Origin: Escherichia coli
GTDB lineage: Bacteria; Pseudomonadota; Gammaproteobacteria; Enterobacterales; Enterobacteriaceae
Assembly (NCBI RefSeq): GCF_003334335.1
Contig: NZ_QOWQ01000001.1
DNA length: 64,000 nucleotides
Direction: 5' to 3' (one strand)
Shown here: piece by piece, positions 45,001-51,000 of the stretch
Position numbering within the stretch: the first letter of the stretch is position 1
Layout of the letters: every line of letters begins with the position of its first letter
Program-made: the position numbers

Positions 45001-48000
45001 ATGTATAAAGTGTTCACTGCATTATTCTGGTTTATTCTTCCTGTAACGAAATAATCTGGCTTGAATCTGCTCAAGAATGAATTTTGAGATATGTGATCAT
45101 TACAAAAATTTGTCGCAGCCATCGGATAGGTATAGAGACCATCGATTTTTTTATTTGAAATGATTTGCACTAATTCCTGATTAAGTATTAATGGATCCAG
45201 TGTATTCAATGAAGTAGTGAAAGGGAATATAGCTATGGAATAGTCTGAAGTATTATCTTCATTAATTTTAGTTTTGAAAACCTGCCCGCTGAAACGATAA
45301 CCTTTCCGGTAGATTGTTTCTATGCAACGATCATAGCCAATTTTTTCAAAAATGCAGCGCAAAGAATAGATACATCTTGTCAGGGACTCGTCACTAACAA
45401 TAATATTTTTCCATACTGATTCGATGATCATATCTTTCAGTACAACATGACCAGCGGATTCAAGTAATACTATTAATACACCTAACTCTTTCTGTGGAAT
45501 ATAAACTTGCTCATTTCCTTGAGTAAGAATTCCATCTTCCGTGAGCGTTAATCCCTCAAGAAAATGATATGAGAATTTATTTTCTAAGTCCATTAGTTAA
45601 CCTCTATGAAAAAATTGGTTTCTTGCATCCTGCTTAAGCAATAGAAATTATGGCTATTCATATTTATGTGTCATTAACGCTACAGGAAATTACATTTGAC
45701 ATATCTATGGTTGTGTTCACTAATTTATCTTAGGAATTCAGTGATGTAATCTGAAATAGCCTTATTCAATTTTGATAAAGTAGATTGTTCTCTAACGCAT
45801 TGAAAAATAATGATTTATAGTATGCTCTTAACTGTTTTAAGATGCTGATTTAAGAAAACATAAGAGGTGCTGGTTATAGTGGTTAACTGCACTATAACCA
45901 GCAAATTTAACCAAATGATTGTAATGCTTAGCCATTATCTTCTGAATTATCGTTTAAGAGTTCAATATATGCCTGCGCTTTACTCTTAACACTATCATCC
46001 TCACAATTGTTAATAATGTGATAGAAACATTGCATTGCGTTATCGATATTTTTAGCCCCAATCTGACATTGACCCATACGATAAATAACTGAATAGTCAT
46101 CATACGGGAAGTAATTGTAACTTAGTTTGTAAAGGTCATATGCTTGTTGATATTTCTTTTTGGGCTGACATACTGATGCAAAATCTTTTAGATACTCATG
46201 ATTTTCGAACGCATAAATGCACAAGAATTTATAATAAATTTCTGCGTCCGTTATATTACCCTTTTCATGGTAGTCGAATGCATATGCATATATTCTATCA
46301 AGGATATCAGGAGTTAAACCATGTAGTAATGCCAGATTTTCTCCTTTCGATAATGCGTGTTTTAGTTGATTTGCCCATTCATCACTATTATTGAATATTT
46401 CAATTGTTTCTGTGCTCATAATATTCCTCTGTGATGTGTCTCGTGATGCCAAATTATTATTGATTGACTCATTGATATTTTTATATTTATCTTTTTTAAA
46501 TTATGAGTTTTAAGCTTGCATTGCTTATGGTATATTTTTCATTATTGGTAAAAGTACTGTTCACTACAAACTAATAACATCATTAGTTGTTTTACTAATA
46601 TTCACCTTATTAGTTATCTTAATTACGACATTACATAAATGCCTTAATGTGTATGACCTGGATTCATAGTATCAATTGCCATTTTTTCAATGAAAATTAA
46701 AAAGGGGATTTTTGAGAAGGGTAGAATGTCGTTTGTTTTTTTCTTTATTATGTCTGGTGACGCGGGGGGATAGAACGTCTGTGCATATAGTAGTGAATTT
46801 ATTCAGGTCTACATTATTCTCTATTTTGGTCAGTTTTATGAGTTCATTTACAGCCATACTCATTAAATCATCTGTTATCGAAAATTTATATATGCTCATA
46901 GCAGATAATATTGCTTGCTGAATTATCTCTTCAGAAATATCCGCTATCTTTATTGACAAATCATGTGTTAGATATTTTCCTCCAAGAGATTCTTGTTCAA
47001 TATAATTTAAACCAGACCCCATTGTGATTTTAACTGGATTAACGGATTTCTCTTCATTTTTCTTATTTTTGTTCTCCTGATCAGGAACTAATGGTTGCAG
47101 TGGTAGGCTATTATTAATATTTCGTGGCTTCATTTTACATTTCTCTCATTTGATTAGAGCAAAATCCGAATTCGCAGCTTCTGATAATGTCAAATATCAC
47201 CTTATGGAGACGTTACGTAGAATGACTATATTTGTTATCGGCACATTAGGGGTATTAATTTTAGTATTGATGGAAGGTGATTATTGAACAGTAACATCGA
47301 GTCACGGTAAAAATGTGAGGTATACAATGGACATTGAATTTTCGCAGATTCATGAAATGGTCTATATGCATGATATTGTAAATTCGGACTCGAAAAAGAA
47401 ACCAAGGATTCCGTTAAAAAAATTCCTTAATGCTGAGAATGTTCTCACGCAAACAACATCATGGACATTAAATTCAAGATATGTGAATGTTAATTCTGTC
47501 AATAAAGTCAACGTAAAGAGTAAAGTTAAAAACAGTTATATCTCACGATCTGTCAATGATGAGTTTAGTTTAACAGATGATGAAATCAATTCTTTTAAAG
47601 AAACGTTAGTCCTTTCCTCTATTGATTCACTGAGTAAACTGGTTCTTAATAATCCTCTTTCTGTATTGTTTACATCGACTGTACGAAGGAATAATAATCG
47701 AGCTAAGATGAATGTCGAGTTCGACTCATGGATTTGCACCAGATGTTGTTGATACATGATATTTTACATTGCAAGGAGATGTCTAAAATGAAAGATGTTG
47801 ATCAAATCTTTGATGCTTTAGACTGCCATATACTGCGAGAATATTTAATTTTATTGTTTTATGATTAACGAGGTTCCATCTTTTTGTTATCTATTTTAGT
47901 TTACCTTGCACAATGCATTATTGCTCTGTTACCAATGCTCAAAATAAAAGCATGCTTACCTTGCTTTAGTATATTATAGCTTACACTTTTTTCTGGAAAG

Positions 48001-51000
48001 ACATAAAAATCAGGAATAAGTTGTGCAAGTCTATCATCATCAACTTGATCCATAATCTCAAACTTATTAACTTTCTTTGATGTTAAATGGGCTGTGTCAT
48101 AGTTTTCAATCCATGTGTATTCAATATTTCGCCGTATTGATTTACTTTCTCTGTTACCTTGTTGCCAGGTTCCACTCAACGCAACAGTTCCTGTTTTATT
48201 TTTTTTGTTATACATAAAGTCGATGGTAAGATTTGCTCGTCCCTGGTCATTAAAAATTACCCAATTTGCAGTGCATGTTTCGTTATATATCATTTTTTCT
48301 GCAGTGTAAGAATAGACAGTGAAGAGAATAAACCCACTGATAAAAACTAAAATAAATAATAAGTTTTTTTTATAATCAATCACGATTAACCTCACGGTAA
48401 GACAGGGTTAAACAGTTTGCCACTTCATGTTGGTTATAGTTTTTATTGCATGCCATAACAATCATCCCCGGTGAGGATTTTGCAAGAGGGAAGTATAACC
48501 ACGGATGTTTTTTACAGTTAATCCCCGAATCCAGTATCCGTGTTTTATATTTATCGAACTCTTTCAACCCATCAATTGTATCTTCTGTTACATTAAAATG
48601 GCAGCCATTAATTTCCGCAACAGTCTTGTAATCCTTGAAAAATGGCTTCGGTTGATTATTATTCCATAGCCAATATGCAGAATATGCGCCTATGACAAAT
48701 GCGCTCAACATAATTAGATGACTTTTTATATTTTTGAGGATTTTGTTATTGAAATTCTTTGCGCCACCAATGCTCTCTTTGTATCCCGCATTAACTTTTA
48801 TGGCAGGTGGGGCATTGTGTGTATGTGCGTCTGTTGACGAGTTTATTACATGATTTTGTATGTTAATGTCATTATGGATCTTGAATCCTCTTCTCGGCAC
48901 GGTTGCAATTAGCGAGTGGGTAGTATCACCAACAGCGCGAAATCCGCGTCTGATAATGGATATGTTCTGATATAACGTGTTAGTAGGCACACGCATACCT
49001 TCTTCTTCCCAGACTCTGGTGAAAAAATCTTGTTGTGCAACCACATCAGGAAAAGCTTCAAGTAGAAGTGATAAACATCGACTGGCTGGCGTTGTCAGAA
49101 CGACGTTAAGATCGGCGTTATGTACCGATATTAATTTTCGGTGCTCAGGCCAGAACTCGATATTATCGTTAATAATCCAGTACATACGTCAATAAACACT
49201 AAATCAATCGAAATGGAGATCACATAGTTTGCTAAGTATATTGGTATTTACGGCATAAATATATATTAATTTTATATTTATCATGATGATTGAAATGAGG
49301 CTTTAATGTTGCAACGTAAAACTTTACGTAAATTAACATGGTTAACATTTATGCCACTATTGTTTGTAAATTCATATTTCGTAATGCTTCTGAATTTTTC
49401 GTGTGATGGTTTTAAATACTATGGTGTTTACTCTTGAGGGGACGGCCTATTTATAAAATACGGACATTTCAATAAATGCCCGTATAAACAGAGTATGATT
49501 CTGGCTGGTCGTTGAGTATCAATGTTGGACCGAATGTGAACGAATAAATAATTCGTTTATTTTACCACCCATTCTCTTTTCGATTCGTTGCTTGTACGCG
49601 TAGATGCTACGGATATCCATATCCAGAACTTCAGCAATCTGATATGGATTATAACCAGAAACCATATACCCCATTATGGTGAATTCCATCTGAGTTAATG
49701 TGTTACCTCTGGTAAATGATAAATAACGACCAATAAATAGTTGTCTGATCTTTTCATTGGCAACATCAAGACCATCATCATTATATATGACAGCAGATAT
49801 TGCTGAGTTGTGTTTTCGCCAGTAATTAGCTAACGATTGCATATTGCGGTCGCTGACTAAAACAATCCCCATGTCAGTACTTGCAAGATAGTCAATCCAG
49901 TCTTTTTCAAGGAATAGACGTAAAAAACTTACTGAAAAATCGACAAAAATATATCCGCTTAATCTCGCATTGTGGTTTTTTGTTAAGATACCTTCTACCA
50001 CACCACGATTAAAATATGAACTTTCTTCGGGCCACATACAAAAACACGAGTTTGCGCAATACTGCAAACGCGGTGACTCTTCTGGCATTATTTGGCAATG
50101 CATTGAGCAACTATTGCATGTAAGACTTTTATAACGACTACAAAGCCCCATGTTAAGAACCTCCCTATCCGTATATAATTGCATAATTTCATTGGTTATT
50201 GATGATGTCAATACACCATGATTTTGTAATTTTGCCGGGAAAAATTGCGATTAATCTGTATTTGCTATAATTCTGAGTAAGGCATTTAAAAATGCATTTC
50301 TCGTTATCAAATATGATTATGTTTCACTGATTTAATCTTGCATGGTTGAGAGCGGTCCAGATAACTATCTCATGGTATAAGAATATCTATATCGCAAATT
50401 GTTTTTGAATGACCAGAAGATATCTTGCGAATCTAAGTTATGCATCTTAAATAGTCTTATTTAAGATGTTCAGATCTCTTTGTGTGTTTAACTAACTGAT
50501 AATACTAGGATATGACGAGAGAAGTGATAGGGTGGAATAATAACAAATGAATATTATGAAAAATGGAATGGTTCAAAATTGTAGCAATTTTGAACCATCC
50601 ACAACTGATATTAGCTAAAGAACATTACCGATACGCACAGGATACCCACGATCAGCGTAATCAGATTTCCGATGGAACGCCAGGGTTTAAGCGCCGGGAT
50701 GAGATACGTTGACAGCGTAGGCATGATGAAAAGTATCATGGCAATGAGCGGGCCGCTGATCGCGTAAATCATCGAAATCGCGTTCGGGTTAATGCAACAA
50801 ACAATGAAGGTAATCAGCGATACCAACATAATTGATAGTGCGCGGTTAAATGCACGACTTTTCTTTACACCAACCTGCTGTAGTGTTGTTTTGACGACCT
50901 CTGTGGCACCTTCAATAACGCCAAAGTACGTACCCAGGAATGATTTCGACATCGCAACTACTGCGACAATAATCCCGGAAATTGACAACCATGCTGGGGC

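What the first reader, a model, noticed from the sequence alone, without database searches (positions are those of the whole stretch)
47901..49185. yqeI-yqeJ resemble a ToxR/ToxS-type membrane regulator pair
YqeI has an N-terminal OmpR/ToxR winged helix, one transmembrane helix and a periplasmic domain. The overlapping downstream gene yqeJ encodes a small protein with an N-terminal membrane anchor and a periplasmic body, the architecture of ToxS-like partners. Sitting beside a cysteine-rich LuxR-type regulator (yqeH) at the edge of a decayed secretion island, this pair may be a surviving signal-sensing module now acting on other targets.
Basis: inference. Interest (0 to 1): 0.45.

Follow-up and report, generated by a model that had tools for sequence, protein, structure and literature searches.

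The report
YqeI/YqeJ: known ToxRS-like sensor pair

Summary
Window 47901-49185 (minus strand) carries E. coli yqeI (269 aa) and yqeJ (160 aa). It differs from K-12 MG1655 by 1 base in 1285. The genes overlap by 8 nt.

- **YqeI:** it has a ToxR-like winged helix, one transmembrane helix and a periplasmic beta-beta-alpha-beta-beta-beta domain with four invariant cysteines.
- **YqeJ:** it has a short positively charged tail, a transmembrane helix and an eight-stranded barrel closed by a conserved cysteine pair.
- **Synteny:** a YqeJ-like ORF is found in 42 of 55 related loci and lies immediately downstream in 41.

Kinch et al. (PNAS 2022, PMC9214523) already list YqeI/YqeJ as a "co-component" system, call YqeJ a lipocalin-like sensor, and report that the periplasmic domains form a complex when co-expressed. 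Later papers repeat this.

The ligand and the direct targets remain unknown. The small additions here are a conserved 8-nt gene overlap and the frequent adhesin-operon neighbours in other genera.

The parts
48376..49185 (-). yqeI CDS (269 aa plus stop): a membrane-tethered ToxR-like transcription factor
   Evidence: ORF. RefSeq and K-12 annotation as b2847. 110 homologues found.
48880..49104 (-). YqeI cytoplasmic winged-helix DNA-binding domain (residues 28-102)
   Evidence: Pfam Trans_reg_C, E=4.1e-9. The best PDB relative is the ToxR DNA-binding domain 8b4b, at 1.6e-7 for the single sequence and 1.6e-14 for the family profile. The motif NTLYQNIS..RRG is invariant in 31 homologues.
48664..48723 (-). 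YqeI transmembrane helix (about residues 155-174)
   Evidence: It is the only hydrophobic segment. KD19 is 1.34 in E. coli against a family median of 2.07. Positive charge lies on the N-terminal side in 27 of 31 homologues.
48379..48663 (-). YqeI periplasmic domain (residues 175-269), a beta2-alpha-beta3 fold with four invariant cysteines
48376..48393 (-). Gene junction: GAGG Shine-Dalgarno motif (48390-48393), yqeJ GTG start (48381-48383) and the 8-nt overlap GTGATTGA with the yqeI stop (48376-48378)
   Evidence: Sequence, annotation. A start codon at -8 (RTGAnTAR) is available in 25 of 41 related cassettes. 36 of 41 have an overlapping start candidate.
47901..48383 (-). yqeJ CDS (160 aa plus stop): a ToxS/VtrC-like partner
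   Evidence: ORF, annotation as b2848. There are 98 relatives among 1.84 billion representative proteins.
48303..48365 (-). YqeJ N-terminal membrane anchor (about residues 7-27), preceded by the cytoplasmic tail MIDYKK
   Evidence: KD19 is 2.26. The family median is 2.26, and 60 of 67 members have a net positive N-tail. The model shows a helix at residues 2-30.
47904..48302 (-). YqeJ periplasmic eight-stranded lipocalin-like barrel (residues 28-160) with the Cys37-Cys158 pair

Best explanation
yqeI-yqeJ is a co-component transmembrane transcription regulator of the ToxR/ToxS-VtrA/VtrC superfamily. According to Kinch et al. it is the E. coli ETT2 counterpart of Salmonella MarT/FidL.

The two genes are translated from one mRNA and coupled through an 8-nt overlap. 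YqeI inserts with its winged-helix domain in the cytoplasm and a small disulfide-bonded alpha/beta domain in the periplasm. YqeJ inserts N-in, C-out and places an eight-stranded, disulfide-closed lipocalin-like barrel in the periplasm. The two periplasmic domains form a heterodimer.

By analogy with VtrC and ToxS, the barrel, alone or together with the YqeI domain, probably binds a small hydrophobic molecule such as a bile salt or fatty acid. Binding would change the stability or oligomeric state of YqeI, so that its DNA-binding domain activates promoters from the membrane.

Shown here: the architecture, topology signals, folds, synteny and coupling. Shown by others: complex formation on co-expression, and phenotypes of a yqeI deletion in APEC. 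Inferred only: the ligand, the activation mechanism and the direct targets.
For: - **YqeI DNA-binding domain.** Pfam Trans_reg_C. ToxR is the best solved relative.
- **Topology.** Each protein has a single transmembrane segment with positive-inside flanks across its family. Periplasmic cysteines are invariant: YqeI C195, C224, C246 and C258; YqeJ C37 and C158. A Salmonella diarizonae homologue lost C195 and C224 together, which suggests that they pair.
- **Synteny.** A YqeJ-like ORF is found in 42 of 55 YqeI-like loci from other species and follows immediately downstream in 41, usually overlapping by 8 nt.
- **Selection.** Both ORFs are intact in the three E. coli sequences compared (this window, FDAARGOS_1276, Sakai). 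dN/dS is 0.26 for yqeI and 0.08 for yqeJ against strain FDAARGOS_1276.
- **Literature.** Kinch 2022 names the pair, calls YqeJ a lipocalin and reports a complex on co-expression. It is listed as a TTR with partner YqeJ and as the coTTR 'YqeIJ'. An APEC yqeI deletion lowers flagellar and fim transcripts, motility, adhesion and colonisation.
Against: - No sequence-level link from YqeJ to ToxS or VtrC is detectable. Single-sequence and profile searches of the PDB both find nothing. Homology therefore rests on fold, architecture and gene context.
- I could not obtain inter-chain contacts or PAE. The pTM of a linker-fused construct is only indirect evidence of a complex.
- The E. coli YqeI transmembrane segment is unusually weakly hydrophobic.
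- yqeJ compared with O157 Sakai has dN/dS of about 1, though on only 13 substitutions.
- Truncated YqeI and YqeJ variants occur in hundreds of sequences.
- No ligand, no binding site and no direct target is known. A K-12 yqeI deletion showed no growth phenotype and only a modest effect on mtlA.
Confidence: 0.88

Rival explanations
1. YqeJ is only a stabiliser. Like ToxS for ToxR or TcpH for TcpP, it would shield the YqeI periplasmic domain from regulated proteolysis and would not itself sense a ligand. Any signal would act on YqeI, for example through its redox-sensitive disulfides, or on proteases.
For: YqeI has four invariant periplasmic cysteines, so two disulfides are possible. [quoted passage not shown] No ligand is known for any FidL/YqeJ-type member.
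Against: The YqeJ fold is the same closed-barrel type that binds bile salts in VtrC. ToxS and VtrC are its best structural matches. Protection and ligand sensing are not exclusive: in ToxRS and TcpPH, ligands modulate protection (abstracts listed).
Confidence: 0.25
2. In K-12-like strains the pair is a silent, decaying remnant of the ETT2 island. It would have no present function and would persist only through hitch-hiking and recent ancestry.
For: It lies in a 31-39% GC island whose neighbours include pseudogenes: ygeF, pbl, ygeK and others. Truncated YqeI and YqeJ forms are frequent: clusters of 92-181 aa hold hundreds of members. yqeJ against Sakai has dN/dS of about 1. The locus is absent from about 31% of complete genomes. 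A K-12 yqeI deletion has no growth phenotype.
Against: Full-length clusters dominate, with 3946 YqeJ and about 6000 YqeI member sequences. dN/dS is 0.26 for yqeI and 0.08 for yqeJ in the more divergent comparison. The SD motif and overlap are intact. All structural cysteines are retained. The APEC deletion has clear phenotypes.
Confidence: 0.2
3. YqeJ is an exported soluble periplasmic protein whose N-terminal hydrophobic stretch is a cleaved signal peptide. It would be functionally unrelated to YqeI, and the adjacency would be incidental.
For: The hydrophobic segment is N-terminal and preceded by lysines, as in signal peptides. I could not run a signal-peptidase site predictor.
Against: - The hydrophobic core is about 20 residues and is modelled as a continuous helix at residues 2-30.
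- There is no lipobox cysteine.
- Adjacency with a start/stop overlap is kept in 36 of 41 cassettes across many genera.
- The closest folds, ToxS and VtrC, are membrane-anchored partners.
- The periplasmic domains form a complex when co-expressed.
Confidence: 0.05

Closest known systems
VtrA/VtrC of Vibrio parahaemolyticus (bile-salt receptor controlling T3SS2; PDB 5KEV/5KEW)
   Different: Aligned identity is only 7-9% and no sequence-level homology is detectable. YqeJ has a conserved N-strand/C-strand disulfide. YqeI has conserved periplasmic disulfides and lacks the C-terminal helix, whereas VtrA has no disulfide. No ligand or direct target is known for YqeI/YqeJ.
ToxR/ToxS of Vibrio spp. 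(PDB 8ALO, 8U2F, 6UUE, 8B4B)
   Different: According to Kinch et al., toxR and toxS do not overlap. ToxR's periplasmic domain keeps a C-terminal helix. ToxRS is a core Vibrio regulator with known targets (ompU, ompT, toxT). YqeI/YqeJ is an islet-borne, fast-evolving cassette with no known targets.
MarT/FidL (Salmonella SPI-3) and GrvA/FidL (E. coli O157)
   Same: Kinch et al. find FidL and YqeJ confidently related by HHsearch. Both share the barrel disulfide. They call YqeI/YqeJ orthologues of MarT/FidL. My searches find a Salmonella YqeI homologue at 40% identity (P0136), and the Salmonella locus L016 carries a YqeJ-like ORF downstream.
   Different: MarT activates the adjacent misL adhesin gene and GrvA activates LEE-dependent adherence. 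The E. coli ETT2 copy has no adjacent adhesin gene. I did not verify that P0136 or L016 is MarT/FidL by name.
PsaE/PsaF (Yersinia pH6 antigen) and MyfE/MyfF
   Same: They have the same co-component architecture and sit next to a chaperone-usher fimbrial operon. Of the 55 related loci fetched here, 17 have a fimbrial chaperone within 4 kb and 12 have a fimbrial major subunit.
   Different: The partner sequences are much more divergent. In the PsaE model the N-terminal helix of the periplasmic domain is reduced to a connecting loop. The E. coli cassette is not next to fimbrial genes.
CadC (one-component pH/lysine sensor)
   Same: It is a membrane-tethered ToxR-like wHTH regulator. CadC is a weak NCBIfam hit (E 3.4e-4) and a weak PDB hit.
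   Different: CadC has a large periplasmic sensor of its own and no ToxS-like partner. The score of 19.6 bits is far below the family cut-off of 400.

Membership tests
Co-component transmembrane transcription regulators (ToxR/ToxS-VtrA/VtrC superfamily, Kinch et al. 2022) | [quoted passage not shown] | tested here: met
   Pfam Trans_reg_C at residues 28-102 is the only domain. The ToxR DNA-binding domain is the best PDB relative.
Co-component transmembrane transcription regulators (ToxR/ToxS-VtrA/VtrC superfamily, Kinch et al. 2022) | Single transmembrane helix followed by a small C-terminal periplasmic alpha/beta domain | tested here: met
Co-component transmembrane transcription regulators (ToxR/ToxS-VtrA/VtrC superfamily, Kinch et al. 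2022) | Partner gene immediately downstream on the same strand, typically overlapping | tested here: met
   The overlap is 8 nt in the RefSeq annotation. 42 of 55 related loci hold a YqeJ-like ORF, immediately downstream in 41. 36 of 41 junctions allow an overlapping start.
Co-component transmembrane transcription regulators (ToxR/ToxS-VtrA/VtrC superfamily, Kinch et al. 2022) | Partner made of a short cytoplasmic tail, a TM helix and a periplasmic eight-stranded lipocalin-like barrel of the VtrC/ToxS type | tested here: met
Co-component transmembrane transcription regulators (ToxR/ToxS-VtrA/VtrC superfamily, Kinch et al. 2022) | Periplasmic domains form a heterodimer | tested here: inconclusive
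   The linker-fused model has pTM 0.73 with 36 of 258 residues disordered. This suggests a confident relative placement, but no PAE or contacts were available. Kinch et al. report dimeric complexes on co-expression.
Co-component transmembrane transcription regulators (ToxR/ToxS-VtrA/VtrC superfamily, Kinch et al. 2022) | Sequence-detectable homology of the partner to ToxS or VtrC | tested here: not met
   phmmer and a 67-sequence profile against all PDB sequences find neither ToxS nor VtrC at E up to 10. Kinch et al. say the same: these families are beyond HHsearch recognition. This is therefore not a strict requirement of the superfamily as they defined it.
Co-component transmembrane transcription regulators (ToxR/ToxS-VtrA/VtrC superfamily, Kinch et al. 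2022) | Binding of a hydrophobic ligand (bile salt or fatty acid) that controls transcription-factor activity | not testable with these tools
   No coordinates, docking or experiments were available. No ligand is reported in the literature searched.
FidL/YqeJ disulfide-containing subfamily (MarT/FidL, GrvA/FidL, STM0342, STM0345, SF3507) | Conserved disulfide between the first and last barrel strands | tested here: met
   C37 is invariant and C158 is at least 90% conserved in 67 family members. In the model they fall in the first strand (35-45) and the last strand (153-159). Actual bond geometry could not be checked.
FidL/YqeJ disulfide-containing subfamily (MarT/FidL, GrvA/FidL, STM0342, STM0345, SF3507) | Profile-level sequence similarity to named FidL proteins | not tested
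The Salmonella loci and proteins found (P0136, L016) are probably MarT/FidL but carry no such name. The claim rests on Kinch et al..
Classical OmpR/PhoB two-component response regulators | N-terminal phospho-receiver (REC) domain and a cognate histidine kinase | tested here: not met
   There is no REC domain in Pfam. The wHTH is N-terminal rather than C-terminal. No kinase gene is adjacent.
CadC family | Score above the NCBIfam CadC cut-off, and a CadC-type periplasmic sensor | tested here: not met
   19.6 bits against a cut-off of 400, and only the wHTH region aligns.

The most novel reading that the evidence does not exclude
The ETT2 copy of this cassette may have been cut loose from the adhesin operon that such cassettes usually sit beside. 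In that case it now works as an orphan periplasmic lipid or bile sensor that cross-regulates type 1 fimbriae and flagella in E. coli, including commensal and K-12-like strains. The conserved 8-nt overlap would ensure coupled production of sensor and regulator. The ligand and the direct regulon would both be new.
Probability: 0.25. Interest if true: 0.4.

Novelty: already known. Interest (0 to 1): 0.12.

Why it matters
The pair belongs to a family that lets enteric bacteria couple a periplasmic chemical cue, bile salts in Vibrio, directly to transcription from the membrane. E. coli K-12 has a single such cassette.

Knowing its ligand and regulon would explain what a widespread 'remnant' of the ETT2 island still does. 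It could also explain the motility, adhesion and serum-resistance phenotypes seen in avian pathogenic strains.

The classification itself, which is all the finding proposes, has been in the literature since 2022. This report therefore confirms rather than discovers.

Tried and rejected
- **Pfam-A scan of YqeJ.** Only a chance-level DUF2149 hit appeared (E 0.29). The protein database's precomputed annotations show newer Pfam accessions: PF27292 on YqeJ and PF27348 on a YqeI C-terminal fragment. I could not look up their names.
- **NCBIfam.** Nothing was found for YqeJ, YqeK or YgeF.
- **Sequence searches of the PDB with YqeJ or its family profile.** There were no meaningful hits.
- **Promoter and terminator scan of 47600-49600.** It found 13 promoter-like sites against 8.8 +/- 3.0 expected, and 1 terminator-like site against 1.0 expected. 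This is uninformative in such AT-rich DNA.
- **Supplement of Kinch et al., for the co-expression method.** It is not held in the library.
- **Link to the ETT2 neighbours.** I considered whether the cassette is tied to yqeH, yqeK or ygeFGH. It is not tied to them outside Escherichia.
- **MtlR partner idea.** I considered the suggestion from an AlphaFold screen that YqeI is a partner of MtlR. The authors themselves found no clear effect.
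Full report
**What is there**

Window 47901-49185 holds two co-oriented minus-strand ORFs. The upstream one is yqeI (48376-49185, 269 aa). The downstream one is yqeJ. It is 160 aa from the GTG at 48383 that RefSeq and the K-12 record annotate, and 164 aa if read from the first in-frame GTG at 48395.

The 1285-bp stretch differs from K-12 MG1655 b2847-b2848 by one base. A megablast finds it in 3737 of 5426 complete E. coli genomes, always chromosomal.

The annotated genes overlap by 8 nt (GTGATTGA). A GAGG motif lies 6 nt upstream of the yqeJ GTG, and this favours the 160-aa start.

The surrounding genes are those of the ETT2 edge:
- ygeH, ygeG and ygeF
- yqeK and yqeL (convergent)
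- yqeJ, yqeI and yqeH
- yqeG and yqeF

GC content is 31-39% across the island and rises to about 50% at yqeF.

**Checking the described architecture**

YqeI:
- Its only Pfam domain is Trans_reg_C at residues 28-102 (E 4e-9).
- Its closest solved relative by sequence is the V. cholerae ToxR DNA-binding domain. E is 1.6e-7 with the single sequence and 1.6e-14 with a 31-sequence family profile. CadC is a distant second.
- It has one hydrophobic segment at about residues 155-174. The segment is weak in E. coli (KD19 1.34) but clear across the family (median 2.07). More positive charge lies on the N-terminal side in 27 of 31 homologues.
- The C-terminal 95 residues contain four cysteines (C195, C224, C246, C258) that are invariant in 31 homologues from Escherichia, Citrobacter, Kosakonia, Trabulsiella, Enterobacter, Kluyvera, Yokenella and Salmonella.

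YqeJ:
- It has the tail MIDYKK and then a strongly hydrophobic 20-residue stretch (KD19 2.26).
- In a 67-member family alignment, 63 members have such a segment and 60 have a net positive N-tail. Only 2 have a second hydrophobic segment.
- C37 is invariant and C158 is conserved in at least 90% of members.

A conserved cysteine pair in a small non-metal-binding domain argues for the oxidising periplasm.

**Folds**

With the 67-sequence alignment, AlphaFold2 models YqeJ at mean pLDDT 94.3. The model has a helix at residues 2-30 and eight beta strands, with a short helix between strands 5 and 6.

By sequence nothing links YqeJ to these proteins. Neither phmmer nor the family profile finds anything in the PDB. 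The relation is therefore visible only in fold, architecture and gene context, as Kinch et al. also state.

**Test of the periplasmic complex**

I scanned one genome per GTDB species with the YqeI alignment and fetched 55 loci. An HMM of the YqeJ family finds a YqeJ-like ORF in 42 of them, immediately downstream on the same strand in 41.

From these loci I built 33 species-paired sequences of the form YqeI(175-269)-(GGGGS)6-YqeJ(28-160). The model has the following properties:
- Mean pLDDT is 78.9, and only the linker and the extreme termini fall below 50.
- pTM is 0.73, although 36 of 258 residues are disordered.
- The YqeI part folds as beta-beta-alpha-beta-beta-beta.

Two independently floating domains of 95 and 133 residues should give a pTM near 0.5 or lower. 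That expectation is my own reasoning, not a measured control. I therefore read 0.73 as a confident relative placement, meaning a predicted complex. I could not see PAE or contacts, so I rate this test as suggestive only.

**Literature**

- Kinch, Cong, Jaishankar and Orth (PNAS 2022, PMC9214523) list 'E. coli K-12 ECK2845 YqeI / ECK2846 YqeJ lipocalin' in their table of candidate co-component systems. They describe the conserved N-strand/C-strand disulfide of YqeJ. They relate YqeJ confidently to FidL by HHsearch and call YqeI/YqeJ orthologues of Salmonella SPI-3 MarT/FidL. They describe YqeI's periplasmic fold as VtrA-like without the C-terminal helix. [quoted passage not shown]
- A 2023 survey lists YqeI as a transmembrane transcription regulator with partner YqeJ.
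- A 2026 preprint lists 'YqeIJ' among the co-component TTRs.
- An APEC yqeI deletion loses flagella, motility, serum resistance, adhesion and colonisation, and has lower fliC, fliD, flgK, flgM and fim transcripts. No DNA binding was tested and yqeJ is never mentioned.
- In K-12, a yqeI deletion has no growth phenotype and only a modest effect on mtlA.
- I found no paper that reports a ligand or a direct target.

**Mechanism**

The best-supported account is the co-component model.
1. The two proteins are made from one mRNA with translational coupling.
2. Both insert N-in, C-out.
3. Their periplasmic domains pair.
4. The barrel, or the barrel-YqeI interface, receives a hydrophobic cue.
5. This changes the stability or oligomerisation of YqeI.
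6. YqeI then binds promoters from the membrane.

Steps 1 to 3 are supported by the sequence, the models, the synteny and the published co-expression result. Steps 4 to 6 are inferred from VtrA/VtrC and ToxR/ToxS.

The rivals are as follows:
- YqeJ is a pure anti-proteolysis partner. This is compatible with everything here and does not exclude ligand sensing.
- The pair is a silent remnant. The evidence is mixed. dN/dS is 0.26 for yqeI in both comparisons. For yqeJ it is 0.08 against a 96.6%-identical strain but about 1.0 against Sakai, on only 13 substitutions. Full-length forms dominate, but truncated clusters exist.
- YqeJ is a cleaved soluble periplasmic protein. This is unlikely given the long hydrophobic core, the conserved coupling and the closest folds.

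**Small additions to the published picture**

(a) Kinch et al. treat yqeI/yqeJ as one of the few non-overlapping cassettes. With the RefSeq start, which has a good SD motif, the genes overlap by 8 nt. An RTGAnTAR junction at -8 is available in 25 of 41 related cassettes, and 36 of 41 have some overlapping start.

(b) Outside Escherichia the cassette is not linked to the ETT2 genes. Its commonest neighbours are a chaperone-usher fimbrial chaperone (17 of 55 loci) and a fimbrial major subunit (12 of 55). One locus has a MisL-like autotransporter and one has an FHA-type adhesin. This fits the PsaEF and MarT precedents, and also the fim effect seen in APEC.

(c) A Salmonella diarizonae homologue has lost C195 and C224 together while keeping C246 and C258. 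This suggests the pairing C195-C224 and C246-C258.

**Verdict**

Interest is low. What remains open is the ligand, the direct regulon, and whether the pair is active in commensal strains.

Noticed in passing
window 48376-48393; loci L002-L056 junctions: Kinch et al. 2022 list yqeI/yqeJ as a non-overlapping exception. RefSeq and K-12 annotation give an 8-nt overlap (GTGATTGA) preceded by GAGG. A start at -8 (RTGAnTAR) is available in 25 of 41 related cassettes, and 36 of 41 allow some overlap. This suggests conserved translational coupling.
   Followed up: partly
loci L005, L007, L009, L011, L016, L031, L032, L040-L043, L045, L046, L053-L056; L022; L027: In other genera the YqeI/YqeJ-like cassette is not next to ETT2 genes. 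It often sits next to adhesin genes. A chaperone-usher fimbrial chaperone is present in 17 of 55 loci and a major subunit in 12 of 55, mostly divergent upstream. L022 has a MisL-like autotransporter and L027 has an FHA-type adhesin. The E. coli copy has no adjacent adhesin.
   Followed up: partly
L016 (Salmonella enterica subsp. diarizonae), YqeI homologue: Both C195 and C224 are replaced by Tyr, while C246 and C258 are kept. This double loss suggests disulfide pairs C195-C224 and C246-C258.
   Followed up: no
window 33727-43227: The window matches K-12 MG1655 (99.97%) only from about 41326 onward, which is where K-12 has IS2H. Upstream it still carries ETT2 apparatus genes that K-12 lacks: SctQ, SctR, SctT, a SctU truncated at 243 aa (matching 235 of 367 profile positions), PrgH/EprH, SctJ and OrgA/OrgB. 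It also carries a truncated LuxR-type ygeK (148 aa). The island is therefore decayed, but less so than in K-12.
   Followed up: partly
window 47901-48383 versus L058 (O157 Sakai): yqeJ differs from the Sakai allele by 10.5 non-synonymous and 2.5 synonymous changes (dN/dS about 1.0). Against strain FDAARGOS_1276 it is 0.08. The counts are small, but this fits the 'fast-evolving' sensor idea or relaxed constraint in one lineage.
   Followed up: no
window 48664-48723 (YqeI residues 155-174): The E. coli YqeI transmembrane segment is the least hydrophobic of 31 homologues (KD19 1.34 against a median of 2.07) and is rich in Ser, Gly, Tyr and Trp. Whether this affects insertion or signalling is unknown.
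   Followed up: no
window 47790-47870 (+): A 26-codon ORF lies between yqeK and yqeJ. It is annotated yqeL (b4683) in K-12 and is convergent with yqeJ. The gap between the yqeL stop and the yqeJ stop is only 30 nt, and the pattern scan found no terminator-like site in it.
   Followed up: no
L002 (Escherichia sp. E1V33) and L025 (E. whittamii): In these Escherichia species a ygeH homologue (62% identity) follows about 550 bp after yqeJ. No yqeK, ygeF or ygeG homologue was detected between them. YqeI and YqeJ are only about 70% identical to the E. coli proteins, whereas the flanking yqeG is 98% identical. The cassette therefore evolves much faster than its neighbour.
   Followed up: no
proteins P0001 and P0142: The protein database's precomputed annotations carry Pfam accessions PF27292 (on YqeJ) and PF27348 (on a YqeI C-terminal fragment). 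Both are absent from the Pfam-A library used by profile_search. These families seem to have been added to Pfam recently, and I could not retrieve their names.
   Followed up: no
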